64,000 bases of DNA from a virus (IMGVR_UViG_3300032330_001742:1-64000), one strand, 5' to 3'; counted from the first letter of the stretch, positions 1 to 64,000 are shown. Program-made: numbers and translations. The notes: a model not told the origin generated them from the sequence alone.

Positions 1-117
1 AACCGTGAATACAAGCCAAAGAAGGACACAATTGAATACACAGTATTCGTCCGCTTTGGTATTCAATGGGAAGAACAGGATGCTATCGCATTTGCTGACG
101 CTGCTTCAGATTCATAA
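1..117 (+). CDS. Major capsid protein, C-terminal fragment (truncated by window start)
   Basis: Frame 1 reads NREYKPKKDTIEYTVFVRFGIQWEEQDAIAFADAASDS*, resembling an HK97-fold capsid C-terminus. Followed by a terminator and head-tail genes. Confidence 0.75.
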   Translation, partial: NREYKPKKDTIEYTVFVRFGIQWEEQDAIAFADAASDS

Positions 118-138
118 TCTGTAAACAGTAAAGATTTG

Positions 139-172
139 GGGGAGTAGGAGTTAACGCTCCTGCTCCCCTTAT
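139..172 (+). terminator. Intrinsic terminator after capsid gene
   Basis: GGGGAGTAGGAG-ttaacg-CTCCTGCTCCCC hairpin followed by TTAT. Confidence 0.75.
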
Positions 173-209
173 CAATTTAATGATATAATACTATTAAGGA
201 GGAATTACA

Positions 210-653
210 ATGTTTGATAATAAAGAAGAAATTAAAAACGAATCTCCAGTTGTTGAAACACCAGTTGTAGAATCACCAGTTGTTGAAGAGCCAGTAAAGG
301 CTGAAGAGGCACCTAAGGTTGAAGAAGCACCAAAAGCAGAAGAGCCAGCAGTAGTTGGAACAGACGCATTTGCACGATCAACAGCAGAAAAGCAACAGGT
401 TGGACCAGTTGCTGATGGAGCAATAGGAGTGGCTGCTGCAAAGCCAGCCCCTGCTAAAAAGTCTGCAGCACCTAAGAAGCCAGCAGTTGAAAAGGTGGCT
501 ATCCACTCAACAAGAAATGTAACTTGGGCAGGAGTTGGCAAGGTATACAATGGCTATAACTTGGTAACACCTGAAGAAGCAGAACAATGGCTTACAAGAT
601 CACATGTCCGCACAGCAACACCTGAAGAGGTTGCAAAGGAATTTGGTAAGTAA
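210..653 (+). CDS. Hypothetical virion-associated protein with Glu/Pro/Val/Lys-rich N-terminus
   Basis: TGATATAAT at 181, AAGGAGG SD, position between capsid and adaptor genes. Confidence 0.6.
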   Translation: MFDNKEEIKNESPVVETPVVESPVVEEPVKAEEAPKVEEAPKAEEPAVVGTDAFARSTAEKQQVGPVADGAIGVAAAKPAPAKKSAAPKKPAVEKVAIHSTRNVTWAGVGKVYNGYNLVTPEEAEQWLTRSHVRTATPEEVAKEFGK

Positions 654-657
654 GTAA

Positions 658-1569
658 ATGGAAGTATTGAGAGTTCCACCATATCCTATTACAACTACAT
701 GGACATTACCCATACCCAACTATGAGTATATTGTGTATGTTGAGGATTTGGTGGACCACTCAGTAACTGAAACCAACATCTTTTCAGATGCCAATGGAAA
801 GTTGATTTATGAAATACCTTTGGCGCAGGTCCAGTATGACCGTAAATTTTTTATTAAGTTTTATGATACAGAACATATCCATACACTCTATGAAGAAAAT
901 TTAGATATTGTTAGACCATACACAGATCCAAACAAACTTGGTACTACCGCATCAGAAATCCAAGAATACAAAACACTAGAAATGGTTGCAAGATCAATCA
1001 TTGATACAATCATAGTTAATGGATTTTATAACTCAAAACATATTGTTCAGCGTAATGGTGATGGGTCAGATTATTTTGCAATCTGGGAAGATATCAACAA
1101 GGTTTTGAAAGTATATGAAAATAATGTTTTGGTATATGACGTTGATCAGCCAGAACTTTCACCATTTGAATTTAGAGTTACATTTGATAACTCTGCAGTA
1201 GAAAGAGTTATTGCAGAAGGATTTAATAGGTCTGAGCAAGGAGCACAACAATATCCAAGAGCATTTGGAGACTTGGGTTATTCAGCAGGATCAATTGCCG
1301 TTGGTTTTCCAAAAGGCTGGGACTACACCTTTGTCCTTGATATTGGATACAGAGCATTGCCACCAGATGTTGAGTATGCAACAAAATTACTTATTGAAGA
1401 TTTGAAGTGTGGTAAATTAGATTATTACACAAGATATGTTTCATCATATAATTCAGATCAATTCAAAATTCAATTTGATAAAAAATTATTCGAAGGAACT
1501 GGCAATATGATTGTCGACAAGATTCTTGATAAGTATGCTGTCACAATCTCTAAGCCAGGATTGATCTAA
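658..1569 (+). CDS. Putative head-tail adaptor
   Basis: Synteny; C-terminal GY..LPPDVEYATKLL resembles gp6/gp15-like connectors. Confidence 0.55.
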   Translation: MEVLRVPPYPITTTWTLPIPNYEYIVYVEDLVDHSVTETNIFSDANGKLIYEIPLAQVQYDRKFFIKFYDTEHIHTLYEENLDIVRPYTDPNKLGTTASEIQEYKTLEMVARSIIDTIIVNGFYNSKHIVQRNGDGSDYFAIWEDINKVLKVYENNVLVYDVDQPELSPFEFRVTFDNSAVERVIAEGFNRSEQGAQQYPRAFGDLGYSAGSIAVGFPKGWDYTFVLDIGYRALPPDVEYATKLLIEDLKCGKLDYYTRYVSSYNSDQFKIQFDKKLFEGTGNMIVDKILDKYAVTISKPGLI

Positions 1570-2015
1570 TGCAATGCGAGGGAAAAGACTTTATGTTCCC
1601 TATGCAAGTAGATGTTTATTATCCTCTTGTTGAACAAGGCGCATATGGTAATGTTAAAAAGCAATGGATGATTAATAAAACTGTTGCATGTCATTTTACA
1701 ACTGCAGGCTTAAAAGCAAAAGAAGAAATTGTACCAAATATTAATATTACACAGGATACAATGCTAATCGGAAGAGTTAAAGCAGATATTAGAATTTCCG
1801 ATAAAGATGATGCAAAATCAATGACAAATATTATTCTGACAAATATACAGGATAGACAGTGTAGTCCTGTGTACCTAGAGACTTCAGGTCCAAGAGCAGG
1901 AAAGTCTACCATATTTGAAGTTGCATCACAAGAACCTCTTGTTGGACCATTTGGTTCAATTGAGTATTATAAACTTGTTCTGCGTAGATCAGAAAATCAG
2001 GCGGTAGATCTATGA
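1569..2015 (+). CDS. Putative head closure/stopper protein
   Basis: Synteny and size (148 aa). Confidence 0.45.
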   Translation: MQCEGKDFMFPMQVDVYYPLVEQGAYGNVKKQWMINKTVACHFTTAGLKAKEEIVPNINITQDTMLIGRVKADIRISDKDDAKSMTNIILTNIQDRQCSPVYLETSGPRAGKSTIFEVASQEPLVGPFGSIEYYKLVLRRSENQAVDL

Positions 2016-3900: not shown

Positions 3901-3916
3901 TACAACTTAATATATA

Positions 3917-3959: not shown

Positions 3960-3965
3960 TGTTTG

Positions 3966-24584: not shown

Positions 24585-27500
24585 ATGTCTTACGTAGGCT
24601 TACACGTACATACTCACTACTCGTTATTTGACGGGATTGCTACTCCAGAAGAATACATTGACCGTGCAGTTGAGTTAGGGATGCCAGCAATTGCCATCAC
24701 TGACCACGGTACTTTATCTGGGCATAGGGAACTGCACCGTATTGCAAAAGCAAAGGGTATTAAGCCTATACTTGGCGTAGAAGGCTATATGTGTCAAGAT
24801 AGATTCGACACTAGAGATAAGTCTGAAAGAGACGGAGATCTAGATCTAGTCTACAACCATATAGTCCTTCTTGCCAAGAACCAAATTGGTTTGGAAAATC
24901 TTAACAAGATTAACGAGATTGCATGGACAGAGGGTTACTTCAAGAAGCCAAGGTTTGACTTTGAGATTCTTGAGAAGTATGCAGAAGGTATTATTGTTAC
25001 CTCTGCTTGCCCAAGTAGCGTACTTGTTAAGGCACTTGAGAATAATGAGTTTGCTATTGCCAAGAAGCATATCGAATGGTTTAAGCGAGTCTTCAACGAT
25101 GACTATTACATTGAGGTAATGCCACATAACCCTGCTGAAATCAACAAACAGTTAATTGATTTGGCAGATGAGTTTGGCGTAAAGGTTGTTGTTACACCAG
25201 ACTGCCACCATAGCCATACAGATCAAAAAGAAATTCAAGAGTTTAAACTTCTTCTTAATACACACGTCAAGATTGACAAAGAGCATACATTCGAAAAGTC
25301 TAAGAAGTACAAAGACATGATGGAGCGTTTGGACTATCTCTATGGACATGATCGTCAGATAACATTCAATGAGTTTGATATCCATCTTCTTTCTTATGAA
25401 GAGATGAAGTCTGCAATGGAAGCACAGGGTATTGATCGTGCAGACATTTACTCAAATACGCTTGGGGTTGCAGAGAAGGTTGGAGATTACGGCATTCAGG
25501 AAGGCATGGATCTACTTCCAGTACAGTACAAGAACCCAGATAAAGAATTAAAGGAGTTGGCTCTAGAAGGATTAAAGGAGCGAGGCTTTGAGGGTAATCA
25601 GGAATATCTAGATAGATTAGATGAAGAATTGCAAGTTATTAAAGATAAAAAATTTGGACCGTACTTCCTTGTAGTTAGAAACATGATTACATGGGCTAAG
25701 AAGGAAGGGATTATGGTAGGTCCAGGTCGTGGATCTGCTGCAGGTTCATTGCTTTGTTATGTTCTACAAATTACAGACATTGATCCAATCAAACACAAAC
25801 TTTTGTTCTTCCGTTTTATTAACCCAGAACGAAATGACTTCCCAGATATTGATACAGACATTCAGGATTCACGTCGTGAAGAAGTAAAAGATTATCTAGT
25901 TAGACAGTATCGACATGTAGCATCAATTGCAACATTCCTTTCATTTAAGGACAAGGGTGTTGTTAGAGATGTTTCAAGAGTATTAAATATCCCCCTAACT
26001 GATGTTAACAAGGTTCTTAAACTAGTTGATACTTGGGATGAATATTGCACATCAAAAACAACACGGGAGTTCCGTGAGAAATATCCAGAGGTAGAAATTT
26101 ATGGCGAACAATTACGTGGTCGTATTAGAGGTACTGGCATTCATGCTGCTGGTGTTGTCACTAGTAAAGATCCTATTTTTAGGTACGCACCAATGGAGAC
26201 ACGTTCTTCTACTGGTAGCGATGAGCGTATTCCTGTTGTTGCAGTGGACATGGAAGAGGCTGAAAAGATTGGTCTCATCAAGATCGACGCACTTGGACTT
26301 AAAACTCTAAGTGTTGTAAAAGATGCTTTAGAGATTATCAGGGAGAGAGACGGCAAGTCAATTGATCCTTTGGATATCCCAATGGATGATGCCAACGTAT
26401 ACCAGATGCTATCTGACGGTTACACAAAGGGTGTATTCCAGTGTGAAGCAGCACCATATACAAACCTTCTTGTTAAGATGGGTGTTAAGAACCTATCAGA
26501 ACTAGCAGCATCAAATGCTTTAGTTCGACCAGGGGCTATGAATACAATTGGAAAAGACTACATTGAGCGCAAGCATGGTCGTCAAAATATTGGTTATACT
26601 CACCAAGTACTAAAAGAGTTTACGGAGGAAACCTATGGTTGTATTCTTTACCAGGAACAGGTTATGCAAGCATGCGTATCGCTTGGCGGTATGTCCATGT
26701 CGGAAGCAGATAAAGTTAGAAAAATCATTGGAAAGAAAAAAGACGCTAAAGAATTTGATGTATTTAAGGATAAGTTCGTTGAGGGTGCTTCACGTTTTGT
26801 TGCTCCTAATACTGCTCGTGATCTTTGGCATGACTTTGAGGCTCACGCAGGGTACTCATTCAACAAGTCACACGCAGTGGCATACTCAACACTATCTTAC
26901 TGGACAGCATGGTTAAAGTACCACTATCCACTAGAGTTTATGTACTCACTACTAAAAAATGAAAAGGACAAAGATGCGAGAACTGAATACCTTATTGAGG
27001 CAAAGCGAATGGGGATTAGCATTAAACTACCTCATATTAATGACTCAGATAGCGATTTTAAAATTGAGGGTAAGGGCATTAGGTTTGGTCTTACTGGCAT
27101 TAAGTATATTTCCGACAAAATTGCAGAGCGCTACATTGAAGCACGACCCTTTAATTCGTATGCTGAACTTGAGGAGTTTACTTTTACTAAAGGAAACGGA
27201 GTTAACAGCCGTGCTCTTCAAGCATTACGAATCATTGGTGCAGCGACATTTAATGATAATCCACGCAACGAACAAGAGATTAAAGAAAACCTCTACGAAT
27301 ATCTAAACCTTCCAGAGTTTAATATTACAGTGCCATCACATTACCACGCATTCATCAGTCCAATTGAGGACTATGAAGAAAAGGGATCATTCATCATGAT
27401 GGGTATGGTAAAGTCAATTAAGAGAGCAAAGGGTTGGTCACGAGTTGAGGTTTTAGATAAAACTGGCAGTGTTGGTATCTTTGATGATGAAAACACAACT

Positions 27501-27857
27501 ATCGAAGCAGGAACATCTTATATACTATTGGCTAATGACAATAGAATTATTTCTGCAATACCAGTAGATCAAATTAAAGGTTCTACAAGTGCAATGATAA
27601 AGTTTTTAAACTATAAGCAGTTGCCATTTAAAGATGAAGAAATGTTTGTGGTATCATTTAAACCTAGGATCACAAAGACAGGTAAAAAAATGGCTTCACT
27701 TACAGTTGCAGATACTGCAAGAAATCTGCATTCAATTACAGTATTCCCAACCTCATTTGCTAAAGCATATATGAAAATTGAAGAGGGTACTGCATACAAA
27801 TTTGATTTAGGAAAAACAAAAGACGGAACAGTTATATTGGAGGATATACATGCTTGA
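24585..27857 (+). CDS. dnaE: DNA polymerase III alpha subunit
   Basis: LHVHTHYSLFDG PHP domain, GPGRGSAAGS, PDIDTD, YSFNKSHAVAY. Confidence 0.97.
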   Translation: MSYVGLHVHTHYSLFDGIATPEEYIDRAVELGMPAIAITDHGTLSGHRELHRIAKAKGIKPILGVEGYMCQDRFDTRDKSERDGDLDLVYNHIVLLAKNQIGLENLNKINEIAWTEGYFKKPRFDFEILEKYAEGIIVTSACPSSVLVKALENNEFAIAKKHIEWFKRVFNDDYYIEVMPHNPAEINKQLIDLADEFGVKVVVTPDCHHSHTDQKEIQEFKLLLNTHVKIDKEHTFEKSKKYKDMMERLDYLYGHDRQITFNEFDIHLLSYEEMKSAMEAQGIDRADIYSNTLGVAEKVGDYGIQEGMDLLPVQYKNPDKELKELALEGLKERGFEGNQEYLDRLDEELQVIKDKKFGPYFLVVRNMITWAKKEGIMVGPGRGSAAGSLLCYVLQITDIDPIKHKLLFFRFINPERNDFPDIDTDIQDSRREEVKDYLVRQYRHVASIATFLSFKDKGVVRDVSRVLNIPLTDVNKVLKLVDTWDEYCTSKTTREFREKYPEVEIYGEQLRGRIRGTGIHAAGVVTSKDPIFRYAPMETRSSTGSDERIPVVAVDMEEAEKIGLIKIDALGLKTLSVVKDALEIIRERDGKSIDPLDIPMDDANVYQMLSDGYTKGVFQCEAAPYTNLLVKMGVKNLSELAASNALVRPGAMNTIGKDYIERKHGRQNIGYTHQVLKEFTEETYGCILYQEQVMQACVSLGGMSMSEADKVRKIIGKKKDAKEFDVFKDKFVEGASRFVAPNTARDLWHDFEAHAGYSFNKSHAVAYSTLSYWTAWLKYHYPLEFMYSLLKNEKDKDARTEYLIEAKRMGISIKLPHINDSDSDFKIEGKGIRFGLTGIKYISDKIAERYIEARPFNSYAELEEFTFTKGNGVNSRALQALRIIGAATFNDNPRNEQEIKENLYEYLNLPEFNITVPSHYHAFISPIEDYEEKGSFIMMGMVKSIKRAKGWSRVEVLDKTGSVGIFDDENTTIEAGTSYILLANDNRIISAIPVDQIKGSTSAMIKFLNYKQLPFKDEEMFVVSFKPRITKTGKKMASLTVADTARNLHSITVFPTSFAKAYMKIEEGTAYKFDLGKTKDGTVILEDIHA

Positions 27858-43458: not shown

Positions 43459-43531
43459 TGGACTGTAGTTCAGTTGGTAGAACACTCGACTGTTAATCGA
43501 GATGTCGCAGGATCGAGACCTGCCAGTCCAG
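43459..43531 (+). tRNA. tRNA-Asn(GTT)
   Basis: TGGACTG/CAGTCCA acceptor stem; CTCGA-CTGTTAA-TCGAG anticodon arm. Confidence 0.9.
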
Positions 43532-43575
43532 CAAAGAATGATATAATATACTTATAAGATCCGTAGGAGGATACA

Positions 43576-47018: not shown

Positions 47019-47228
47019 ATGAAAGTAACTAAGCAAAGATCTGCGTTAAAGGCAATAACTTGGCGCATAATTGGAACTGCGGATACCTTTGTACTATCAT
47101 ATTTTATAACACACAAAGCAATTACTGCTGCATCAATTGCAGGGTTTGAGGTACTAACAAAAACAATTCTTTATTACTTTCATGAGCGTGGTTGGAATAA
47201 AGTTAAATGGGGGAGAAAGAATGCGTAA
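47019..47228 (+). CDS. DUF2061 membrane protein
   Basis: RSALKAITWRIIGT...YYFHERGWNKVKWG. Confidence 0.85.
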   Translation: MKVTKQRSALKAITWRIIGTADTFVLSYFITHKAITAASIAGFEVLTKTILYYFHERGWNKVKWGRKNA

Positions 47229-49433: not shown

Positions 49434-49724
49434 ATGAAGAAGCATGAGTGGAAAGATGATGCTCTATGCTTAGAATATGATACTAATCTATTTTTTGATA
49501 AATATGAGGAAGATGAACTTCTAAGACCAGCAATAGATAAACTATGTTCTAACTGTCCAATTAGTAAAAATTGTTTTGCTGTTGGTATAACTGGAAAAGA
49601 GTGGGGAGTATGGGGTGGTGTTTATCTAGAAGGTGGAGAAATATCTAGAGAATTCAATAAGCATAAAGATAAAGCAACATGGGGAGATACATGGAAGTAC
49701 TTAACAATGGAGTCAGATAACTAA
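49434..49724 (+). CDS. whiB: WhiB-family transcription factor
   Basis: W...ALC, LFF, CxxCP....C, GVWGG. Confidence 0.92.
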   Translation: MKKHEWKDDALCLEYDTNLFFDKYEEDELLRPAIDKLCSNCPISKNCFAVGITGKEWGVWGGVYLEGGEISREFNKHKDKATWGDTWKYLTMESDN

Positions 49725-53349: not shown

Positions 53350-53492
53350 TGCGTTCTGATTTTATTGACGCATCTAATAATAATCTTAAAACATGTATGA
53401 AATGTTTAGACGATTCTAATGATGAAAATTTTTGGGAAAATCATCAGGAGATGCGTGACAATATTATTTGGTGTGTTTCCAAAGGGCAGTAG
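53349..53492 (+). CDS. Small hypothetical protein (not in track)
   Basis: 47 aa with CMKC; stop overlaps the tRNA 5' end. Confidence 0.4.
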   Translation: MRSDFIDASNNNLKTCMKCLDDSNDENFWENHQEMRDNIIWCVSKGQ

Positions 53493-53559
53493 TTCAGTTG
53501 GTTAGAGCACCACTCTTATAAGGTGGTTGTCGTGGGTTCAAGTCCCACCTGCCCTACCA
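53483..53559 (+). tRNA. tRNA-Ile(TAT)
   Basis: AGGGCAG/CTGCCCT acceptor, A73, CCA; CCACT-CTTATAA-GGTGG anticodon arm. Confidence 0.88.
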
Positions 53560-54793: not shown

Positions 54794-55813
54794 ATGCGCT
54801 TAGATAAAAATGGCATTGGAATTAATGATTCTGGTAAAGAGTATCTTTGGGATTTAACATATCAGTCAATATCATCTATAACAACTTCTGATTTAGATTT
54901 TTTTCATTTAACTTGGGCAAAAGATCCAGAAGGAATAGAAGAAAAATTTAATAATGCTGACAATAGCATACATGGTAATACAAATGGTTATCTTCCAACG
55001 CTAATAAATTCAAAATATAATTATAGGTTTAAAGATACATATCATGTTTTAGATTGTGTTCCAGTAGATTGGGCAAAAGATAGAAATAAAGACAGACAAA
55101 TAGAATATAGGTATAACTCTGATTGGTTTAGATCTGATCATTTTAAAAAAGAACATACAGGTATACACGTTTTGTTTTCTGGATGTTCAAATACAGAGGG
55201 TATTGGCGCTAACATTGAAAATACTTGGTCTCATATGTTATATAAAAAGATGTCAGAACAATATTATATGGATGGATACTATAACCTTGGTCAAAGTGGT
55301 GCAGGAATTGAGTCGATAATTCATAATATAACAAAATATATTAATGAGTATGGAGCACCAAATTTTATATTTTTACTACTTCCGAATATACTGCGTGGTT
55401 GGAAATGGAATGAGGAAGAGTCCAGATGGTACTACCATCAAGATAATCCTTGGGAAGATAACCCAGTAAAAGAAGAAACAATTAAAAAGCATAGAGATAG
55501 GTTTCCTACCTGGCTTTTTACAATGAGTATGTTTTTAAATTATTGTAAGGATAAAGACATTAAGGTAATTTGGAGTACATGGGATACTTGGGAAACAGAT
55601 AACTTAAAGTATGTTAAACAATTTGAGAATACCTTTTTGCCAATTTCAAAAATTACCATGGAAGATATAGAAACAAAGTACATTGATCTAATAAAAAGAG
55701 AAGATGCTATGGAAGCCAGAGATGGACATGATGGATATATAACACAAACACACTGGTATAATCATTTTAAGGAACTACTTGTTGCAAGGGGAACACTAAA
55801 TGATAATAATTGA
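54794..55813 (+). CDS. SGNH/GDSL-like protein (paralogue of 34653)
   Basis: EHTGIHVLFSGCSNTEG, YYNLG, ARDGH. Confidence 0.55.
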   Translation: MRLDKNGIGINDSGKEYLWDLTYQSISSITTSDLDFFHLTWAKDPEGIEEKFNNADNSIHGNTNGYLPTLINSKYNYRFKDTYHVLDCVPVDWAKDRNKDRQIEYRYNSDWFRSDHFKKEHTGIHVLFSGCSNTEGIGANIENTWSHMLYKKMSEQYYMDGYYNLGQSGAGIESIIHNITKYINEYGAPNFIFLLLPNILRGWKWNEEESRWYYHQDNPWEDNPVKEETIKKHRDRFPTWLFTMSMFLNYCKDKDIKVIWSTWDTWETDNLKYVKQFENTFLPISKITMEDIETKYIDLIKREDAMEARDGHDGYITQTHWYNHFKELLVARGTLNDNN

Positions 55814-55895
55814 TTCAATAAGAAATATTATAAAAAAAAGAAAATTAAAAAAAATATTAAAAGAAATTAACAAACCAAGAAAGTATATCTACTAA
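55800..55895 (+). CDS. Small Lys-rich peptide (not in track)
   Basis: 31 aa, fills the gap between two genes. Confidence 0.4.
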   Translation: MIIIDSIRNIIKKRKLKKILKEINKPRKYIY

Positions 55896-56522
55896 ATGTT
55901 AAGGGTAAACTCTTTCCCAAGAACCGCTAATATTTTTGTCTCTGGTTTTTTGCAGCAGTTTTTTACAATAGAAGACAAAACATATACACCACAAACTATG
56001 CATGACCTAAGTTTGCTTGACAACAAAGAAGTAAAACAAATAGTTATTATAAGAAATCCAAAAGACTGCATACCATCTTTTGAAATATTAAAAAAACTAA
56101 GTGATGAATATTGTGAAGAGCCAATTTTATATGCCATAAACGAATGGATTCGGTGGCATGAAAAAGTAATTGAAAATTCAGACCACTTGTTTTTATTTTC
56201 TTTTGAGCAAATCATCAATAATCCAGTAGACTGCTTAGTATCTGTTGCTGATATAAATAAAATTAAATACATGCCAAAATATGAAATGCACAATCACCAT
56301 GGCAGATGGGTTAATGCAAAAACACAACTGGGACCAGATGATTCAATTAGAAGCACATCAAAAAATAGCAAAGAGTATCAATCAAAAGTGGATGAGTATT
56401 TCAATCAAGATCCAGAAATTTTGGAAAGAGTAGAATTGCTTTATTCTAAATTAAAAGAAACCATCATTATAAATCAAAAATTATTTGGAATAAAAATAAA
56501 AGAAATGGGGAAAAATGAATAA
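55896..56522 (+). CDS. Sulfotransferase-like protein
   Basis: SFPRTAN, IIRNPKDCIPS, FEQIINNP. Confidence 0.6.
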   Translation: MLRVNSFPRTANIFVSGFLQQFFTIEDKTYTPQTMHDLSLLDNKEVKQIVIIRNPKDCIPSFEILKKLSDEYCEEPILYAINEWIRWHEKVIENSDHLFLFSFEQIINNPVDCLVSVADINKIKYMPKYEMHNHHGRWVNAKTQLGPDDSIRSTSKNSKEYQSKVDEYFNQDPEILERVELLYSKLKETIIINQKLFGIKIKEMGKNE

Positions 56523-57294
56523 AGGAAAACTTTTTTTAGTAGGAATGCCAATTGGTAATTGGGAAGATATGTCTGTCAGAGCATACAATTATATTAAAAA
56601 TGCAAAAAATATTGTTATCGAAAGAGAAGAAGCCTTTAGAGAAATTTGGCCTGCTTTAAATTTAGATAGAAGTGATGCAAATATAATATCTATTGAGTTT
56701 GAATCAAATGAAGGTGAGCCCACAGGGATTCCATATGAACTGCATAATGCAGGAAAGATACTTGATTTATTAAACAATGGAGAGGACGTGTTTGTAGTTT
56801 CTGATGAAGGAATGCCAGGAGTAGCAGATCCTGGAGCACACATCGTGGCAGAGGCAATTAAAGCAGGGGTAGAAATAACAGCAACACCTGGTCCTTCAGT
56901 AGTAATAGCAGCAGTTTCAGTTACTGGAACAATGCATAATTTTACTTTTGATTCATTTTTACCATTTGAAAGAGAAGACAAAAGAGAATTTCTTAAACAA
57001 AGAGCAGGACTTGCAACCCCACTTGTTTTAGTATTAAGGACAGTTAAAAATACAGATGGACCTAATCCAGTATCTATTTTTAGCAATGAAATTCCAGAGT
57101 TTTTAGAGGATGCCTGTGAAATATTTGGATCCAATAGGCATGCAGCACTTTGTTACAATTTAACAAGAAAAGATGAAAAGGTAGTAAGAGGAACACTCAA
57201 ATATCTTAAAGATTATTTTGCTACAGAGGAAAAAAATTTACGTGATCAGATCACTGTAGTTATTGATAAGAAGTTTGGATCAATGGCTATCTAA
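56515..57294 (+). CDS. RsmI-like tetrapyrrole-methylase-family methyltransferase
   Basis: GMPIGNWEDMSVRA, SDEGMPGVADPG, PGPS, FLP. Confidence 0.8.
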   Translation: MNKGKLFLVGMPIGNWEDMSVRAYNYIKNAKNIVIEREEAFREIWPALNLDRSDANIISIEFESNEGEPTGIPYELHNAGKILDLLNNGEDVFVVSDEGMPGVADPGAHIVAEAIKAGVEITATPGPSVVIAAVSVTGTMHNFTFDSFLPFEREDKREFLKQRAGLATPLVLVLRTVKNTDGPNPVSIFSNEIPEFLEDACEIFGSNRHAALCYNLTRKDEKVVRGTLKYLKDYFATEEKNLRDQITVVIDKKFGSMAI

Positions 57295-58711
57295 TAATAG
57301 ATTGCTTGTATGTTTTTTCCCATAGTTTAATGTCATTTTCGTCATTGAGCAAAGGCTGCCCCTTAATGTTTAAACTAGTATTAAGTAAAACTGGTACACC
57401 AGTTTCTAGATAAAATTTATTAACTGTTCTCCACAAGCCTCTATGATCATTTCTATTTACTGTTTGCACTCTAGATGTTCCATCAGCATGAACAACTGAA
57501 GGAATTTTTTCTGGTTGTAAACACTTAACAGTGTATTGCATATAAGGAGATGAGAAATCCATATCAAACCATTTTGACGCACACTCTTCTAAAACAACTG
57601 GAGCAAATGGTCTAAATAGTTCACGTTTCTTAATCATGTTTACTTTATCTTTAATGTTTGGATCTCTTGGATCAGCCAAAATTGACCTATTGCCAAGTGC
57701 ACGAGGACCATACTCTGCTCTACCAGTAGCAACAGCAGCAACTCCATCTTTTAATATTGTATCTACTATCTTTTGTACTGGGTATTCTCCACCAAGATCA
57801 TAGCCAAGATAAGGAGTTTCCCAATCAAGGTGCTTGCCATAAAGTGCTGCAGCAGCACCTAAAGAACTACCAGCATCACCTGGGTTTGGCATAATCCAAA
57901 TCATATCGAAAAGTTTCCATAGCGCTGTATTAGCAGAAGAGTTGAGTGCACAACCACCCATAAAAACTAAATTCTTTTTACCAGTGATTGCTTTTGCTTC
58001 TGCCATAAACTCCATAAGCCTTGTCTGGTACACAACCTGAACAGCAGCAGCAATATCAAACTTATCTTGTTCGCCCTTGATCCATCCCCAGTCAGTTATA
58101 CCTTTGTGAAAGTTATAAGACTGGCTGCGAAAGTTAGGGAAGTACTCGTCAACTTCCTTATAGTATCTACGCCAATCACCGTATGCAGCCATGCCCATCA
58201 TAATGTACTCTTCTTGGTTTGGCATTAGACCAATCAACTGTGTAAATGCAGAGTAGAACAAACCAAAACTAACAGGATAGTTTTGCTTATATTTTAATTT
58301 AATCTTATCACCTTCGCCTACCCAAACGGTAGATGTATTATATTCTCCAATTGCATCTAAGACTACAATTACTGCATCATTAAAAGGACTAGTATAGTAT
58401 CCTGCAGCAGCATGTGAATAATGATGACCAAAAGATTTTCTAGGTACATTAGGAAGGTCAAAGCGTGGCTTCCAATCCCCTGAACCACCCTTTATAAGCA
58501 GCCTGGAGGCCTTTAGAAGGGGTTTTTCATAGTAGGCTATACGATCTGGTAGGCCATGCTGTAAAGCATCATTAACTAAACTATCATTAACATACCAATC
58601 GTTTTTGTTTTTGCTATATCTTTCAGCATGTCCAGCAAATAATATTTTGCCATCTTCAATTAATGATACAGATGCATCATGTGAAGTTTCATTAATCCCT
58701 AAAATTCTCAT
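57287..58711 (-). CDS. Carbamoyltransferase (NodU/CmcH/TobZ family)
   Basis: HDAS, HHYSHAA, GGCALN, EYGPRALGNRS, RPFAP, LNTSLN. Confidence 0.92.
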   Translation of the reverse strand: MRILGINETSHDASVSLIEDGKILFAGHAERYSKNKNDWYVNDSLVNDALQHGLPDRIAYYEKPLLKASRLLIKGGSGDWKPRFDLPNVPRKSFGHHYSHAAAGYYTSPFNDAVIVVLDAIGEYNTSTVWVGEGDKIKLKYKQNYPVSFGLFYSAFTQLIGLMPNQEEYIMMGMAAYGDWRRYYKEVDEYFPNFRSQSYNFHKGITDWGWIKGEQDKFDIAAAVQVVYQTRLMEFMAEAKAITGKKNLVFMGGCALNSSANTALWKLFDMIWIMPNPGDAGSSLGAAAALYGKHLDWETPYLGYDLGGEYPVQKIVDTILKDGVAAVATGRAEYGPRALGNRSILADPRDPNIKDKVNMIKKRELFRPFAPVVLEECASKWFDMDFSSPYMQYTVKCLQPEKIPSVVHADGTSRVQTVNRNDHRGLWRTVNKFYLETGVPVLLNTSLNIKGQPLLNDENDIKLWEKTYKQSIIR

Positions 58712-59376
58712 TCGGCACCAGTAGAATCTCTTTTGTCTTTTAGCGGTATATTGTGATACCAATTTGGAAGAGCATATCTTGGCCCTTTTGTTACGGGATA
58801 GACCTCATGAACATACAAAAAGTTTGATGGGAAGAACAAAACACTTCCAGCCTTTGGCTTAAACTTTAATCCAGAGTGTCTAAATTCAATCTCACCACCT
58901 TCATAGTCATCATTTAGGTATAGTAGTACAGATAGAACTCTGCTACTTATCCCCTGATCTTGGTGGGCTGGTAAATGACCACTTTTATCATATTTCAAAA
59001 GATGCATTGTATGTTCTCTAGACTTAATATTCTTTTCAGCAAATGGGTATAGTTCTGTGGTGTAATGGTTTAATGTTTTATCTAATGCACCAAAAAGTTG
59101 TGACGAAATGCTTGCTTGCTCTTCTCTATAAACATCATTGGCTGGTATGTGTTCAACTTGTGGAATAAACTTTTGCCAACAAAACATTAATTTATTATCG
59201 CCTTCACCATATGTCCAAGCAACCCATGGCTTAACAGATGTTAGTTGAGGCTGTTTATCTTTTTCATATCTAGCATCTAATTCTTCAATTTGCTTAATCA
59301 AGGATGCAGGGTCTTTAATCACATTTGTATAATAGGCAATTCCTAAATCTAAAGTTTCAACATTAAATTCTTGCAA
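58708..59376 (-). CDS. 2OG-Fe(II) oxygenase
   Basis: HQD, YLNDDYEGGE, FPSN..YVHEV..V..G.RY. Confidence 0.88.
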   Translation of the reverse strand: MQEFNVETLDLGIAYYTNVIKDPASLIKQIEELDARYEKDKQPQLTSVKPWVAWTYGEGDNKLMFCWQKFIPQVEHIPANDVYREEQASISSQLFGALDKTLNHYTTELYPFAEKNIKSREHTMHLLKYDKSGHLPAHQDQGISSRVLSVLLYLNDDYEGGEIEFRHSGLKFKPKAGSVLFFPSNFLYVHEVYPVTKGPRYALPNWYHNIPLKDKRDSTGAE

Positions 59377-59956
59377 GAGGGTAATCCTTTGCTTTCCATT
59401 TATTTATTCCAGGATGAAATTCTGGATCTACATGCTGTGGCAAAGATGTATGCATGTACAGTCCAGTATATCTATTACCCCTTGTAACCGTAGTTATACC
59501 ATGAATGTGTTCTGTTCCAGAACTTGGAAAAAATACTGCAGAATATTGTTTTGGTTTATATTCAAATCCCTGATTTGGAAAATAAATTATTCCACCATCA
59601 TAATCTTTTTCATTATTAAGATACATTACTGTACTAAACTCAATCCAAGGCTCTGGTCCTTGTGCATCAATATGAAGGTCACCTTTTGTTCCAGTTGCCC
59701 AATGAGATCCAAACCCTTTAAAAACATATATATCATTTTTAAAGCCGTACAGTTCTTTATGCATAAGATTTGCTTTATGACCATACTTAATCATAATATC
59801 CATAACCGTTTTGTTATAAGGAAGAGATGTTCCTCCATATCGTTTGCTGTAGTATTCTGGGTACGGATTGACCTCAGATGGATTAGTCTGTTCAGCAATC
59901 AGTGTTGCTGCATCTTCTGGTGAGATAAAGTTTTCTACTATATGTATTCTATGCAT
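59363..59956 (-). CDS. 2OG-Fe(II) oxygenase
   Basis: HID, YLN..YDGG, HIHG...RY. Confidence 0.88.
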   Translation of the reverse strand: MHRIHIVENFISPEDAATLIAEQTNPSEVNPYPEYYSKRYGGTSLPYNKTVMDIMIKYGHKANLMHKELYGFKNDIYVFKGFGSHWATGTKGDLHIDAQGPEPWIEFSTVMYLNNEKDYDGGIIYFPNQGFEYKPKQYSAVFFPSSGTEHIHGITTVTRGNRYTGLYMHTSLPQHVDPEFHPGINKWKAKDYPLARI

Positions 59957-59977
59957 AACTCTATTATAGCACTAGCC

Positions 59978-60676
59978 CTATGCTACCCTTTTTATATAAA
60001 TATCATAAAAGCCTAAATTGTGTAACGCAATTCCGTCTACAATCCAGTTTTTATTTAAAAATAAAAATTCATTTACTGTTTGAAACGTTCCATATGGCTT
60101 TTCTTCAATAACACCATCATAAATAAGATAATCGTTTAAACCAATTATTCCACCAACACGAACTAACTTTGATGATTCTTTTAAGAGTTCTCTAGTTTGA
60201 CTTCTTTCATTAGTTATATCAATATAAATAAAATCATATTTTCCATTTAGTTGTTTTGCTACATTAATAGCATCACCCTTCATTGTTGCCACATTATCAT
60301 GATAATTAAACTTATCAATAATATATTGTTGATGATTTTCTGGGGTATAAAGTAATTCATGCTTAAAGCCTTCACACTGGCAAGAGCCAAACTTACGCCA
60401 AGACCAACACTTCAGATCTTGATTGTATAGGTCAACTAAAAGTGCATGAGATGCTTTTGCTGTATCAATAAATAGTTGTGCGGAGTAACCCCAGGCTACA
60501 CCAAATTCTAAATACCTTATACCAAGTGGCAAACTTTTGGCATATTCCTCTCTAGATGAATATAATTTAGCCAAATTTAATTGATCTTGAGATATTTTTT
60601 CTGAATCTTCAATTTCATCTTCAGCAAAATCTTTAAACTCATCAAACTTTAAACCACGAACTGGTTTTCTAGCCAT
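59978..60676 (-). CDS. Class I SAM methyltransferase (Methyltransf_24-like)
   Basis: LEFGVAWGYS, YDFIYID, GGIIGLNDY. Confidence 0.8.
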   Translation of the reverse strand: MARKPVRGLKFDEFKDFAEDEIEDSEKISQDQLNLAKLYSSREEYAKSLPLGIRYLEFGVAWGYSAQLFIDTAKASHALLVDLYNQDLKCWSWRKFGSCQCEGFKHELLYTPENHQQYIIDKFNYHDNVATMKGDAINVAKQLNGKYDFIYIDITNERSQTRELLKESSKLVRVGGIIGLNDYLIYDGVIEEKPYGTFQTVNEFLFLNKNWIVDGIALHNLGFYDIYIKRVA

Positions 60677-60884
60677 TTGAATGAGATCCATCACAAAATG
60701 GATAGGATTTTGATTGACCACATACACACAATTTTTTGCGTTTTAGGTTTTCTATTTTTTCAACTACTTCTGTTGCATCTTTATAAAGTCTGAGCGTTGC
60801 TTCTGATTCATTGATAGAAAGAATTTCTGCTGCTTTATCTTTGTTTTCGCCTTCTAGAATTACTACTAGATTACCTTGCTTCAT
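60669..60884 (-). CDS. CDGSH iron-sulfur domain protein
   Basis: LCVCGQSKSYPFCDGSH; KOW-like N-terminus. Confidence 0.85.
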   Translation of the reverse strand: MKQGNLVVILEGENKDKAAEILSINESEATLRLYKDATEVVEKIENLKRKKLCVCGQSKSYPFCDGSHSNG

Positions 60885-60887
60885 ATA

Positions 60888-61655
60888 TTACCTTTCGAGT
60901 GTATTGTTTAGTCGTGCTTCTTCATAAAAATCAAAACGGCACCAATTAGAAAGTGTATACCTTATACCTTTTGTAATAGGAGTAACGCCATGCACATAGT
61001 AAAGGCTTCCTGGAAACATCACTATTGATCCTCGTTCTGGTTTAAAGTGATAGTCAAAGTCTGGAAAGTATAACTCTCCGCCTTCAAAGTCGTCATTTAT
61101 ATATGCAAGTATTGCTAAATCACCACTCCACATGTTAGGCCAAGTCTTCAATTGTTCTTCTTGGCTTGGTCCCTCATCATGATCTGGATCATTATTTACA
61201 TAATGAATATCTAATATGTCTGTATGTGGTGCTAAATATGTATTCTCTGGATGAACCATCATCATACATTTTTGATCTGTAAGATTAGATAGTTTTTCAT
61301 TCCATTCTTTTGCTGCAAAATCAATCATTCTTTTGCTCATCTTTTGCATAAACTTTTCATACTCAAAAGTTACTTTTGGCTTGTCATGGAATCCACGTGC
61401 CAATGTGAGTGGATAGCAGTGAGTGCGTTCAGACATAACCTCGTACTCTTTTACAATTTCCATAAACTCTTGAATTTCATCTTCAGTAAGGAAGTTTTTA
61501 ATATATACAATGTTGTCAATACCCGTTCCATATTTTTCTGTAAATACATCTGCAACCTTTTTATCTTGTTGCCCTTCAAAAAAATAAGGTCTTGGCGTAT
61601 CAATACTTTTAAAAAGTTCATCTAGAACTGGTGTTTGAAATGGATAATTGCTCAT
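60888..61655 (-). CDS. 2OG-Fe(II) oxygenase
   Basis: HTD, YINDDFEGGEL, HGV..GIRY. Confidence 0.88.
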   Translation of the reverse strand: MSNYPFQTPVLDELFKSIDTPRPYFFEGQQDKKVADVFTEKYGTGIDNIVYIKNFLTEDEIQEFMEIVKEYEVMSERTHCYPLTLARGFHDKPKVTFEYEKFMQKMSKRMIDFAAKEWNEKLSNLTDQKCMMMVHPENTYLAPHTDILDIHYVNNDPDHDEGPSQEEQLKTWPNMWSGDLAILAYINDDFEGGELYFPDFDYHFKPERGSIVMFPGSLYYVHGVTPITKGIRYTLSNWCRFDFYEEARLNNTLER

Positions 61656-61674
61656 AAAACAATTATACCATTAG

Positions 61675-61746
61675 CACCCCCAGTAGGATTCGAACCTACG
61701 ACTTACTGCTTAGAAGGCAGTTACTCTTCCGCTGAGTTATGGAGGT
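61675..61746 (-). tRNA. tRNA-Arg(TCT)
   Basis: ACCTCCA acceptor; ACTGC-CTTCTAA-GCAGT; TTCGAAT T-loop. Confidence 0.9.
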
Positions 61747-61750
61747 AAAG

Positions 61751-61821
61751 TAGGCCTAGAAGGTAACGCTCCTTCTTCTCAGGATTAAAAGTCCTGAGCA
61801 TCACTTTAATGCTTTAGGCCC
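61751..61821 (-). tRNA. tRNA-Lys(TTT) with non-canonical D and T loops
   Basis: GGGCCTA/TAGGCCT acceptor; CAGGA-CTTTTAA-TCCTG; T-loop AGCGTTA. Confidence 0.75.
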
Positions 61822-62036: not shown

Positions 62037-62038
62037 CT

Positions 62039-62112: not shown

Positions 62113-62118
62113 AATACT

Positions 62119-62601
62119 TTAAACTTTTTTATCTTTAATTTTTTTATACATATTTTTGTTTGGATATAACTTTTCCATTTCTGCATCAAAATCTTCTGAA
62201 CCAATCCAAAATATTTTATCTGATACATGCCAACAAAAGTTAATGTTATTAGACAAACAATATGATATACCCCAGGATAGCACATCCGAGTCCATTTTTC
62301 TACCAGCCTCAACAAGCAATAAATATTCTATTGAGTTAATATCCTTTTTAACAAAAATTGATCCAACAACAGAAGGCTTTAAAGCAAGTGGTACACGCTC
62401 ATTAATAAGCCACTCACACTCAAAATTTTTACATGGGTGCTGTGGTCTATCTTCATATTCTTTGCAGCCTTTTCCAATTTCTAGAAAATGACAATTTTTG
62501 CCAGGGTACATCTTATGACCACGAATATCTCCAGCAAGCCAACCTTCACAGCAACGTGTACAGTCACCGCAAGTACGATTAAGTAATGGTAGTTGTGTCA
62601 T
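62119..62601 (-). CDS. YkgJ-like CxxCxxCC protein
   Basis: CGDCTRCC..CHFL..C..YEDRP..C..FEC. Confidence 0.8.
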   Translation of the reverse strand: MTQLPLLNRTCGDCTRCCEGWLAGDIRGHKMYPGKNCHFLEIGKGCKEYEDRPQHPCKNFECEWLINERVPLALKPSVVGSIFVKKDINSIEYLLLVEAGRKMDSDVLSWGISYCLSNNINFCWHVSDKIFWIGSEDFDAEMEKLYPNKNMYKKIKDKKV

Positions 62602-62609
62602 TGTTCCTC

Positions 62610-62765
62610 TTAGTAATTAGGTATGGATTTAATTCTTTTATTACAGACAGTGCAATTTGTATATGTTCTCATTGTGAATGGACATGAGGAATCTATGGTA
62701 TGTTTATGCCTACATGCTGATTGCTTTAAAAGCATCAGCGTTACCTTAAAAAACTCTTTGATCAT
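62610..62765 (-). CDS. Small Cys/His protein (not in track)
   Basis: CRH..SCPFT..CTVC; leaderless promoter. Confidence 0.6.
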   Translation of the reverse strand: MIKEFFKVTLMLLKQSACRHKHTIDSSCPFTMRTYTNCTVCNKRIKSIPNY

Positions 62766-62800
62766 TACTTTAGTATAGCATCACCTGCTATAATTGTAAA

Positions 62801-63352
62801 GTGCAACCATACATCATTAAAAATTTTATTAGCAATGAAGATGCTAATTTAATAATAGAGTTTATTGAAAAAAATGATAAACAGGATAGTGATAAAATTA
62901 AAAGAAGACTTATTCGTTTTGGAATAGATAATTTTAATGGTACAACAGGAACAGTTGATGAGGCAGGCCAAATTGGCCAGTTGGTAAAGTCACACGCTCT
63001 AAATGTTATTAATCTAATTAAAGATAAGCATGAAGATTCTTCAGAAATTTATCTATCTACACTGTGGCTATCAAAACAAATACCAGGGTCCAATGTTTTG
63101 GCTCACAGAGATACAGATGGTGGTATGAGCATGCACTATAAATATAGCGGAATTATATATTTAAATACACAAGAAAATGGTGGAGAAATATCTTTTCCTA
63201 AACTTGGTATTGATTATAAACCAGAGGGTTGTGATCTAGTTTTCTTTAATTGCAGAGATAGAAGGTCTGTGCATAAAGTTAAAGAAACAACTCAAAATAG
63301 ATATGCAATCCCAATGTGGTTTACTGATGATCCAAAATTTGCAATGGCTTAA
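62801..63352 (+). CDS. 2OG-Fe(II) oxygenase
   Basis: HRD, YLN...GGE, H.V...RY; leaderless GTG start. Confidence 0.85.
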   Translation: MQPYIIKNFISNEDANLIIEFIEKNDKQDSDKIKRRLIRFGIDNFNGTTGTVDEAGQIGQLVKSHALNVINLIKDKHEDSSEIYLSTLWLSKQIPGSNVLAHRDTDGGMSMHYKYSGIIYLNTQENGGEISFPKLGIDYKPEGCDLVFFNCRDRRSVHKVKETTQNRYAIPMWFTDDPKFAMA

Positions 63353-63749
63353 GGTATCTAACTTCATCAATAATTTTATGTTTAAGTGCCTGATTAATCA
63401 TTTGGTCTGAATATGAGTTTGGTTCTGGTGTATCAGAAAAATATACTACATAATACATGTGGCTGTATATTGTTTTCATAATTGCCCCATTGGCAATTGC
63501 TTTTTTTACATTATCTGTTCTTTTTGCTCCAGGCCTTTTCTTTTCGCCCTCTAGGCCACCCTTGCATTCAACATATTCATATCTTTCACCTTTAGCAAGA
63601 TAATCAACCTCGCAACCAGTATTTTTCATATAAACATTTTTTTCTATTTCTACAAATCCTCTAGTAACCAAATCATTAAATACTAAATCTTCAAAAGCAT
63701 CTCCAGATTTTTTAGATTGAGATTGAAAATTATTTTGATTATAGTTCAT
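63321..63749 (-). CDS. PD-(D/E)XK restriction-endonuclease-like protein
   Basis: GDAFE, EVD, VECKG. Confidence 0.7.
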   Translation of the reverse strand: MNYNQNNFQSQSKKSGDAFEDLVFNDLVTRGFVEIEKNVYMKNTGCEVDYLAKGERYEYVECKGGLEGEKKRPGAKRTDNVKKAIANGAIMKTIYSHMYYVVYFSDTPEPNSYSDQMINQALKHKIIDEVRYLKPLQILDHQ

Positions 63750-63783
63750 TAAACAATGGTACCACATCTGATATAATAATTCA

Positions 63784-64000
63784 ATGACTATTTTTTTTAA
63801 TCCATTTAGAAATATTGATCACCCCTATATTGAAAACTTAACGATATCTGAGCGTCAACTCAAAAGGGCAAAAGTTTATGAGAGCAGGTGGGTCTGGCTT
63901 TCCTCATTAAATCCTGGCGGTGAGATAATGGAGGTTGGAGTTGCAGCAGGAGATTTTTCGGAATCAATAATTAAAAAAGCAATGCCTGAAAAATTATACC
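63784..64000 (+). CDS. Class I SAM methyltransferase, partial (paralogue of 59978 gene)
   Basis: ISERQLKRAKVYESR..IMEVGVAAGDFS; runs off window end. Confidence 0.7.
   Translation, partial: MTIFFNPFRNIDHPYIENLTISERQLKRAKVYESRWVWLSSLNPGGEIMEVGVAAGDFSESIIKKAMPEKLY

What the first reader, a model, noticed from the sequence alone, without database searches (positions are those of the whole stretch)
1..64000. Apparent absence of AGCT and CCGG, extending into tRNA D-stems
Seen by eye: no AGCT in the stretches checked, despite very Ala-rich genes where GCT follows G, T or C (aag gct, gag gct) and GCA follows A. None of roughly 70 CCG trinucleotides I traced was followed by G. GATC, CTAG, TGCA and GGCC are common. 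The usual tRNA TAGCTCAG reads TAGTTCAG in Asn (compensated, GTTC/GAAC) and Ile (leaving a G-U pair, GTTC/GAGC), and TAACTCAG in Arg. Established: these are the AluI and HpaII/MspI sites. Inference: long-term selection by host restriction or methyl-directed defence. It also suggests the DNA is not globally shielded by hypermodification.
Basis: partly seen in the sequence, partly recalled or inferred. Interest (0 to 1): 0.7.

Follow-up and report, generated by a model that had tools for sequence, protein, structure and literature searches.

The report
Restriction-site purge in lake actinophage
This 116-kb virus of (uncultured, probably freshwater) actinobacteria has erased every copy of three four-letter DNA words that restriction enzymes cut (AGCT, CCGG, CGCG), even inside its tRNA genes. 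This is a clean, clade-wide example of a well-known phage escape strategy, not a new mechanism.

Summary
Observation confirmed and extended. AGCT, CCGG and CGCG are absent from the window (0 seen; 211, 15 and 14 expected). They are also absent from the whole 116,064-bp phage genome (0; 353, 33 and 32 expected). They are the only missing tetramers and all three are palindromes.

Codon-preserving shuffles expect 359 AGCT. The purge is made by codon-pair choice: GCT never follows an A-ending codon.

It reaches the tRNA D-arms. None of 26 tRNAs in three AGCT-free genomes carries TAGCTCA, against 10 of 24 in a cultured relative.

In 138 related IMG/VR contigs, AGCT is gone from 130 and CCGG from 137. 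Sub-lineages additionally purge GGCC, GTAC, TCGA, ACGT or GCGC, and several have regained AGCT.

The phage has WhiB, no integrase, no DNA methyltransferase and no known hypermodification gene.

Best reading: selection by host type II restriction enzymes. The host and its enzymes were not identified.

This is a known kind (Rusinov 2018). The scan has already reported similar purges, tRNA rewriting included, on other DNA.

The parts
1..64000 (.). Whole window (and the remaining 52 kb of the genome) free of the palindromes AGCT, CCGG and CGCG
   Evidence: 0 observed against 211/15/14 expected in the window and 353/33/32 in the genome; synonymous shuffles expect 359/38/36.
43459..43532 (+). tRNA-Asn(GTT). 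The D-arm reads TAGTTCAG...GAAC instead of the usual TAGCTCAG...GAGC, a compensated change that removes AGCT.
   Evidence: In the cultured relative BillNye, tRNA-Asn reads TAGCTCA.
53483..53559 (+). tRNA-Ile(TAT). The D-arm reads TAGTTCAG...GAGC. AGCT is removed on one side only, leaving a G-U pair.
   Evidence: ARAGORN structure. BillNye tRNA-Ile reads TAGCTCAG.
61674..61746 (-). tRNA-Arg(TCT). The D-arm reads TAACTCAG...GAGT, a compensated change that removes AGCT.
   Evidence: The same TAACTCAG form occurs in the AGCT-free relatives G002 and G003. BillNye tRNA-Arg(TCT) reads TAGCTCAG.
24585..27857 (+). DnaE-type DNA polymerase III alpha gene. It served as the marker to collect and place relatives, and is itself free of the three words.
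   Evidence: Pfam; relatives; tree; at the AGCT sites of tolerant relatives this genome has other letters, mostly one-letter variants.
49434..49724 (+). WhiB-like regulator gene, the marker for an actinobacterial host
   Evidence: PF02467, 41.4 bits, above the curated cut-off. Among the 14 control genomes the family rings only in Corynebacterium.

Best explanation
The genome belongs to a virulent, DnaE-encoding siphovirus-type actinophage, a distant relative of the Streptomyces phages of Stanwilliamsviridae. Its DNA most likely enters the host unmodified. Host orthodox type II restriction enzymes that cut AGCT (AluI-type), CCGG (HpaII/MspI-type) and CGCG (FnuDII/BstUI-type) would cleave any copy of these words. 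Selection has therefore removed every copy and keeps removing new ones.

The removal costs no protein change. Ala after an A-ending codon is GCA, GCC or GCG. Leu after NAG is TTA or TTG. Ser before T is never AGC. In tRNA genes the D-stem is rewritten, mostly with a compensating change.

Different sub-lineages carry different purge sets because their host strains carry different restriction enzymes. Where an enzyme is no longer met, the word drifts back.

Shown: the absence, its significance, the synonymous route, the tRNA rewriting, conservation across the clade, lineage-specific gains and losses, and the lack of phage methyltransferase and integrase genes.
Inferred: that restriction endonucleases are the agent, and which bacterium is the host.
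For: (1) Among 256 tetramers the only three absent ones are palindromes with known type II specificities. By simple combinatorics (16/256 x 15/255 x 14/254) the chance that three named words are all palindromes is about 2e-4.

(2) Codon-preserving shuffles expect 359/38/36 copies; none is observed. GCT occurs 709 times but 0 times among the 899 Ala codons that follow an A-ending codon. AGC is never followed by T. NAG is never followed by CTN.

(3) The genome holds 6,729 one-step neighbours of AGCT, so new sites must arise constantly and be removed.

(4) tRNAs. None of 26 tRNAs in the AGCT-free genomes G000, G002 and G003 holds AGCT. In Streptomyces phage BillNye, which tolerates AGCT (252 observed/295 expected), 10 of 24 tRNAs hold TAGCTCA (Fisher p = 2e-4). 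In the AGCT-tolerant relative G001 the only tRNA found, tRNA-Asp, reads the canonical TAGCTCAG. AGCT-free genomes read TAGATCAA, TAGATTAG or TAGAATAG there.

(5) Clade pattern. Pooled over 69 distinct loci (1.11 Mb): CCGG 0/371, CGCG 8/324, AGCT 200/3698. On the DnaE tree, total purges of GGCC, GTAC, TCGA and ACGT arise repeatedly, and AGCT returns at least three times. A second scan adds two further AGCT-tolerant contigs and a GCGC-free group.

(6) The cultured relative BillNye has purged GATC (0/145) and 14 six-base palindromes, among them GAGCTC, CCGCGG, GTCGAC, GCATGC, AGGCCT and AGTACT. From my own knowledge these are the sites of the Streptomyces enzymes SacI, SacII, SalI, SphI, StuI and ScaI. 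So this phage stock uses site avoidance against its host genus.

(7) No DNA methyltransferase or hypermodification gene was found. No integrase was found in six genomes. Avoidance is strongest in non-temperate dsDNA phages and for orthodox type II sites (Rusinov 2018, PMC6286503).
Against: - No host was identified, and no cognate restriction enzyme or methylated motif was tied to it.
- In published lake metaepigenomes, the acI/hgcI actinobacterial bins showed no methylated motif and no methyltransferase (PMC6329791). I know that SMRT sequencing detects m5C poorly, and those bins were incomplete.
- Pfam has, as far as I recall, no AluI nuclease family, so even a host genome could not have been screened for it here.
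- G001 has regained 55% of the expected AGCT, while its third-codon-position difference from its AGCT-free sister in DnaE is only 0.30. That is on the fast side for simple drift.
Confidence: 0.8

Rival explanations
1. Avoidance of being marked, not of being cut. Host cytosine methyltransferases of AGCT, CCGG and CGCG specificity (orphan or part of R-M systems) would methylate phage DNA. Progeny would then be destroyed by methyl-directed (type IV) nucleases in neighbouring strains. A genome without the words cannot be marked.
For: - All three words carry a cytosine that the known cognate enzymes methylate (own knowledge).
- CGCG methylation is reported in all marine Acidimicrobiia bins of one study (PMC8919816).
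- Planktophila genomic islands carry Dcm-type methylases next to restriction genes (PMC12817590).
- The sequence pattern predicted is identical to that of classical restriction.
Against: - No type IV system of the host is known.
- The cultured relative BillNye purges exactly the words of classical Streptomyces type II endonucleases.
- Avoidance in phages is documented mainly for orthodox type II sites (PMC6286503).
- This reading needs two host components where classical restriction needs one.
Confidence: 0.1
2. A virus-encoded nuclease is the agent. Either this phage cuts host DNA at these words and is immune because it has none, or competing viruses in the same cells carry such nucleases.
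For:
- This genome encodes a GmrSD_C/DUF1524 HNH nuclease at 47182-47862.
Against: - That nuclease has a signal peptide, so it is probably secreted.
- It is absent from the three other genomes compared (G001-G003), which share the CCGG and CGCG purge.
- No gene shared by the AGCT-free genomes and missing from the AGCT-tolerant G001 looks like a nuclease. The genes G001 lacks lie mostly in one contiguous block, and that record is 88% complete.
- Three or more separate specificities would need three or more nucleases.
Confidence: 0.04
3. Mutation bias without selection. Methylated cytosines in these words deaminate to thymine, so the words decay (AGCT to AGTT, CGCG to CGTG).
For: - Two tRNAs read AGTT where AGCT is usual.
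- CGTG is the most over-represented tetramer (98 observed/50 expected).
- CpG is depleted genome-wide (rho 0.45).
Against: - Decay gives depletion, not 0 of 353, when 6,729 one-step neighbours keep feeding new sites.
- The replacements are varied (AACT, AGCA, GGCT, TGCT, GTCT), not only C-to-T products.
- The Asn and Arg(TCT) tRNA changes are compensated on the other strand of the stem.
- The CGTG excess is what synonymous CGC-G to CGT-G replacement would give under any cause.
Confidence: 0.02

Closest known systems
Restriction-site (short palindrome) avoidance in virulent dsDNA phages (Rusinov et al. 2018, PMC6286503). Classical cases from my own knowledge: staphylococcal phage K without GATC, Bacillus phages without GGCC.
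   Same: Complete elimination of orthodox type II palindromes from a non-temperate dsDNA phage that has no protective methylase, achieved at synonymous positions.
   Different: The host and its enzymes are unknown here. Three 4-base words are purged at once in 116 kb. The purge is conserved over well above 100 metagenomic relatives, with a changing set of extra words.
Streptomyces phage BillNye and kin (Stanwilliamsviridae, Loccivirinae; clusters with DnaE, about 127 kb)
   Same: - DnaE is 55% identical.
- The gene order is the same: tape measure, minor tail proteins, helicase, primase, DnaE, RecA, RecB-like exonuclease, with the terminase further on in BillNye.
- Both carry many tRNAs and both purge restriction words heavily.
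   Different: - BillNye keeps AGCT, CCGG and CGCG at expected levels. It purges GATC and 14 GC-rich hexamers instead.
- Its G+C is 53% against 36% here.
- Family membership of this phage was not tested beyond DnaE identity and gene order.
AGCT elimination in clade-A pandoraviruses (Poirot et al. 2019, 10.1101/712018), with GCGC missing from 345-359 kb enterobacterial phages noted in the same paper
   Same: A single 4-mer, there also AGCT, is totally absent from a large viral genome, and the absence follows phylogeny.
   Different: Pandoraviruses infect amoebae, and the authors found no restriction-type explanation. Here the virus is a bacteriophage, for which restriction is the ordinary explanation.
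Earlier reports of this scan on other genomes (e1-5674953, e1-5689283, e1-5700164, e1-3415497)
   Same: Phage genomes purged of AGCT and other palindromes. Two of them note the same D-arm rewriting: TAACTCA with GAGT, and TAGTTCA with GAAC.
   Different: These are other genomes. I did not re-check them. Whether they are relatives of this phage is unknown.

Membership tests
Restriction-site avoidance in phages | The word count is far below a composition-aware expectation | tested here: met
   Searches (Markov model; synonymous shuffle): 0 observed against 353-359 (AGCT), 33-38 (CCGG) and 32-36 (CGCG).
Restriction-site avoidance in phages | The avoided words are short palindromes of orthodox type II specificity | tested here: met
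   The only absent tetramers are AGCT, CCGG and CGCG. Their assignment to AluI, HpaII/MspI and FnuDII/BstUI is established knowledge.
Restriction-site avoidance in phages | The removal acts on the DNA word (synonymous or compensated changes), not on the protein | tested here: met
   Codon-pair counts, one-letter variants at orthologous sites and compensated tRNA stems.
Restriction-site avoidance in phages | The host encodes endonucleases of the avoided specificities | not testable with these tools
   - The host is unknown.
- The genome-contig hits were phage contigs mis-binned in MAGs.
- Genome samples reached through them carry no taxon names and held no candidate host.
- RE_HpaII was found in 1 of 300 genomes of an unnamed class.
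Restriction-site avoidance in phages | The phage lacks a cognate protective methylase or global DNA modification | tested here: met
   No PF00145, PF01555, PF02086, PF02384, PF05869, PF00303 or PF01702 in the complete genome. Unrecognised modification enzymes cannot be excluded.
Restriction-site avoidance in phages | Non-temperate lifestyle, where avoidance is most pronounced | tested here: met
   No tyrosine or serine integrase in six related genomes, three of them 100% complete. Lifestyle itself is inferred.
Virus-encoded R-M with self-purge (chlorovirus/giant-virus type) | A cognate methylase and/or nuclease gene in the viral genome that tracks the purge | tested here: not met
   No methylase. 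The only candidate nuclease (47182-47862) is secreted-type and unique to this genome.
Actinophage (host phylum Actinomycetota) | A WhiB-family regulator and actinophage-typical genes | tested here: met
   - WhiB above the curated cut-off.
- GP88 and DUF932 families.
- Best DnaE matches are in Streptomyces phages.
- The nearest Atlas clusters of the HNH nuclease are mostly Actinomycetota.

The most novel reading that the evidence does not exclude
The purge set may be a heritable barcode of the restriction repertoire of uncultured lake actinobacteria. AGCT, CCGG and CGCG cutters would then be near-universal in the hosts of this very widespread phage clade. GGCC, GTAC, TCGA, ACGT and GCGC cutters would come and go between host strains. 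Reading the barcodes across hundreds of contigs would allow phage lineages to be matched to host strains by methylome or R-M content, without cultivation. A bolder variant: because AGCT purges recur in unrelated lake viruses (earlier scan notes), the agent is a mobile, virus-borne AGCT nuclease circulating in lakes rather than a chromosomal host enzyme.
Probability: 0.12. Interest if true: 0.6.

Novelty: new member of a known kind. Interest (0 to 1): 0.35.

Why it matters
The mechanism is textbook, so the single genome adds little. The clade does add something.

More than 130 related contigs from many metagenomes show total purges that switch on and off between close relatives (DnaE 80-99% identical). 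That is an unusually clear natural record of a phage-restriction arms race in hosts that are hard or impossible to grow.

It makes concrete, testable predictions about the restriction enzymes and cytosine methylation of freshwater actinobacteria.

It also shows that selection on a 4-base word is strong enough to rewrite the conserved tRNA D-arm.

For annotation, it warns that codon-pair bias and odd tRNA stems in such phages are by-products of site avoidance.

Tried and rejected
- **Near-identical DNA in cultured phages:** none.
- **Host identification through genome contigs with WhiB:** the eight hits are phage-like contigs binned into MAGs labelled Acidimicrobiaceae, Flavobacterium, Saccharibacteria, Polynucleobacter and others. 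They are not hosts.
- **Using those MAGs as centres:**
  - The class of G006 is evidently not actinobacterial. The phage's WhiB protein matched only G006 itself among 301 genomes, so the RE_HpaII tally there (1 of 300) says nothing about the host.
  - The phylum sample around G007 is Actinomycetota (WhiB in 165 of 301).
  - The ten smallest WhiB-positive genomes have 52-77% G+C and normal AGCT, CCGG and CGCG counts.
  - G007 itself is a chimera of about 70% G+C contigs and 33-41% G+C contigs.
- **A phage methylase as the reason for AGCT tolerance in G001 and six tolerant fragments:** none found. The fragments are only 9-15% complete.
- **Phage-encoded nuclease as the agent:** rejected.
- **Assembly or library artefact:** rejected. 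The same purge occurs in independent assemblies from many samples, with lineage-specific exceptions.
- **G+C content as a host clue:** rejected. The cultured relative sampled, BillNye, has 53% G+C, far below the roughly 70% I recall for Streptomyces hosts.
- **Extra purged words of 5-8 bases in this genome:** none convincing. TGCGCA is 0/5.5 here and 1/23.7 over four genomes.
Full report
**1. What the window is**

The window is the first 64 kb of a single-contig, 116,064-bp virus record. CheckV rates it 100% complete. G+C is 35.9%.

Genes found:
- A DnaE-type polymerase III alpha (24585-27857), a DnaB-like helicase and a carbamoyltransferase.
- A DnaG-type primase, RecA and a weak PD-(D/E)XK match.
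- A CHAP plus PG_binding_1 lysin.
- A WhiB regulator above the Pfam cut-off (49434-49724).
- The actinophage families GP88 and DUF932.
- Nine tRNAs.

DnaE is 53-55% identical to DnaE of the best-matching Streptomyces phages. The order of tape measure, minor tail proteins, helicase, primase, DnaE, RecA and RecB-like exonuclease matches Streptomyces phage BillNye of Stanwilliamsviridae.

No tyrosine or serine integrase is present in this genome or in five relatives.

I read it as a virulent actinophage. The IMG/VR relatives and the Lake Mendota MAG names on mis-binned relatives point to fresh water. The host genus is unknown.

**2.

- AGCT, CCGG and CGCG are absent from the window. Expected numbers are 211, 15.3 and 14.4.
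- They are absent from the whole genome too. Expected numbers are 353, 33 and 32, with z of -26, -6.7 and -6.2.
- They are the only absent tetramers, and all three are palindromes.
- GATC, CTAG and TGCA are at or near expectation.
- The 10.3 kb outside my ORF calls is also clean.
- No further word of 5-8 bases is convincingly purged in this genome.

**3. It is selection on the DNA word**

I shuffled synonymous codons within each of 161 ORFs. This keeps the proteins and the codon usage. It gives 359 +/- 15 AGCT, 38.5 CCGG and 35.5 CGCG. None is observed.

The route is visible in the codon pairs:
- GCT is used 709 times, but never among the 899 Ala codons that follow an A-ending codon. There GCA, GCC and GCG are used.
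- AGC is never followed by a T-initial codon, whereas AGT is, 85 times.
- After NAG codons, Leu is always TTA or TTG, never CTN.

The genome holds 6,729 words one substitution away from AGCT. New sites must therefore arise all the time and be removed.

**4. The purge reaches the tRNA genes**

In the window:
- tRNA-Asn and tRNA-Ile read TAGTTCAG.
- tRNA-Arg(TCT) reads TAACTCAG.
- The far side of the stem is compensated in Asn and Arg. In Ile a G-U pair is left.

Outside the window, tRNA-Asp reads TAGATCAA with GATC.

Two controls:
- In BillNye, which keeps AGCT (252 observed/295 expected), 10 of 24 tRNAs carry TAGCTCA, including Ile, Asn and Arg(TCT). In three AGCT-free genomes of the present clade, 0 of 26 do (Fisher p = 2e-4).
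- In the one near-complete relative that tolerates AGCT (G001), the only tRNA found, tRNA-Asp, has the canonical TAGCTCAG. The three AGCT-free genomes each have a different rewritten stem there.

The GGCC-free relative G002 likewise has no GGCC in its tRNAs. G000 and G003 do.

**5. The clade**

Two scans of IMG/VR with DnaE gave 416 and at least 597 related stretches. I examined 80 loci from the first scan and 58 new ones from the second.
- AGCT is absent from 74 of 80 and from 56 of 58.
- CCGG is absent from 80 of 80 and from 57 of 58.
- CGCG is absent or nearly so almost everywhere.
- Pooled over 69 distinct loci (1.11 Mb): CCGG 0/371, CGCG 8/324, AGCT 200/3698.

On a DnaE tree the AGCT purge is ancestral to both main branches. 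It has been relaxed at least three times: in L040, in L056/L059/L067, and in L037/L051. Two more tolerant contigs, L165 and L220, appear in the second scan.

Additional total purges appear in separate sub-lineages:
- GGCC (for example 0/129 in the complete genome G002)
- GTAC
- TCGA
- ACGT
- GCGC

The L056/L059/L067 group has AGCT at about 70% of expectation but no GTAC at all. In G002, CCGG is coming back (9/56).

At the AGCT sites of the tolerant lineages, AGCT-free relatives carry other words, mostly one-letter variants.

**6. No self-protection genes**

- None of five DNA methyltransferase families was found. No thymidylate-synthase-type hydroxymethylase and no TGT/DpdA was found either.
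- G001-G004 also lack C5 and N4/N6 methylases. G005 has one N4/N6 methylase.
- Genes unique to the AGCT-tolerant G001 include nothing like a DNA methylase or anti-restriction gene.

**7. Explanation**

The pattern is the one expected from selection by host orthodox type II restriction enzymes on a virulent phage with unmodified DNA. This is the class of case described by Rusinov et al. (PMC6286503).

The cultured relative supports this. BillNye lacks GATC (0/145) and 14 GC-rich hexamer palindromes. From my own knowledge, several of these are the sites of classical Streptomyces enzymes. So the same phage stock purges a different word set in a different host group.

Rivals:
- Avoidance of methyl-marking followed by type IV restriction. 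The sequence data cannot separate this from classical restriction.
- A virus-encoded nuclease. The only candidate, a DUF1524 HNH protein at 47182-47862, has a signal peptide and is unique to this genome.
- Deamination bias. It cannot give zero copies, and it does not fit the varied and compensated replacements.

**8. What could not be done**

I could not identify the host or its enzymes. The details are under Tried and rejected.

Leads from the literature only:
- Planktophila genomic islands carry type I and II restriction genes and Dcm methylases (PMC12817590).
- CGCG methylation is general in marine Acidimicrobiia bins (PMC8919816).
- Lake Biwa acI bins showed no SMRT-detectable motif (PMC6329791).
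- From my own recollection, the known AGCT enzymes AluI, MltI and OxaI come from Micrococcales actinobacteria. I could not check this here.

**9. Novelty**

The kind is known. Missing 4-mers in large phages have been noted before (10.1101/712018). This scan has already reported comparable purges on other DNA, including the same D-arm rewriting.

What this case adds is scale and resolution: a very widespread uncultured clade in which purge sets switch between close relatives.

I rate it a new member of a known kind, of moderate interest.

Noticed in passing
window 47182-47862 (+): A 226-aa protein with an N-terminal signal peptide and a GmrSD_C/DUF1524 HNH nuclease domain. It is absent from the three related genomes compared. 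The nearest Atlas clusters are actinobacterial HNH endonucleases. It is probably a secreted nuclease picked up from a host.
   Followed up: partly
window 45644-46959 and 54794-61655; also genome 65690-66223 and 83145-83831: Many tailoring-type enzymes:
- four 2OG-Fe(II) oxygenases, one with a sub-threshold Tet_JBP match
- two Asp/Asn beta-hydroxylase-like cupins
- a NodU/CmcH carbamoyltransferase
- a Methyltransf_24 SAM methyltransferase
- a tetrapyrrole-methylase-fold protein
- an APS-kinase/cytidylyltransferase fusion
- a weak sulfotransferase match
The substrate is unknown. No C5 DNA methylase accompanies them, so DNA hypermodification seems unlikely, but it is not excluded.
   Followed up: partly
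whole genome (G000): CpG is strongly depleted (odds ratio 0.45) although only two CG-containing palindromes are fully purged here. This may be a scar of repeated past purges of CG-containing words (ACGT, TCGA and GCGC are purged in sister lineages).
   Followed up: no
L135 (Streptomyces phage BillNye, record 30000-79999): GATC is 0/145 and 14 six-base palindromes are absent (AGGCCT, AGTACT, CACGTG, CAGCTG, CCCGGG, CCGCGG, CTCGAG, CTGCAG, GACGTC, GAGCTC, GCATGC, GCCGGC, GGCGCC, GTCGAC), each with 5.7-23 expected in 50 kb. None of its 24 tRNAs there holds GATC.
   Followed up: partly
G001 (contig of L037), whole 95 kb: AGCT recovery is uneven along the genome. Per 5 kb, observed/expected runs from 3/22 to 14/17. 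This suggests a mosaic of segments with different purge histories, that is, recombination between tolerant and purged lineages.
   Followed up: no
L086-L093; G007 contigs C1, C5, C8 (L136, L140, L143): Relatives of this phage sit in public MAGs labelled Acidimicrobiaceae, Flavobacterium, Saccharibacteria, Polynucleobacter, Methylococcus, Bifidobacterium and Arenimonas. The 'Acidimicrobiaceae' MAG mixes contigs of about 70% G+C with contigs of 131-271 kb at 33-41% G+C. Two of the latter lack CGCG (0/14, 0/10). This is binning contamination by large low-GC elements.
   Followed up: partly
G005:C1:5789-6403 (L114; contig of L041): One relative carries a 238-aa N4/N6 DNA methyltransferase. Its target, and any word it releases from purging, were not examined.
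   Followed up: no
G000, G001, G002, G003: TGCGCA is almost absent across four genomes (1 observed, 23.7 expected in total). G003 additionally lacks GCTNAGC (0/12.3) and CCTNAGG (0/10) and nearly lacks RGCGCY (1/6.9).
   Followed up: partly
window 61750-61821 (-): The predicted tRNA-Lys(TTT) has a T-loop reading AGCGTTA instead of the usual TTCGAAT-type loop. It may be an aberrant or non-functional tRNA.
   Followed up: no
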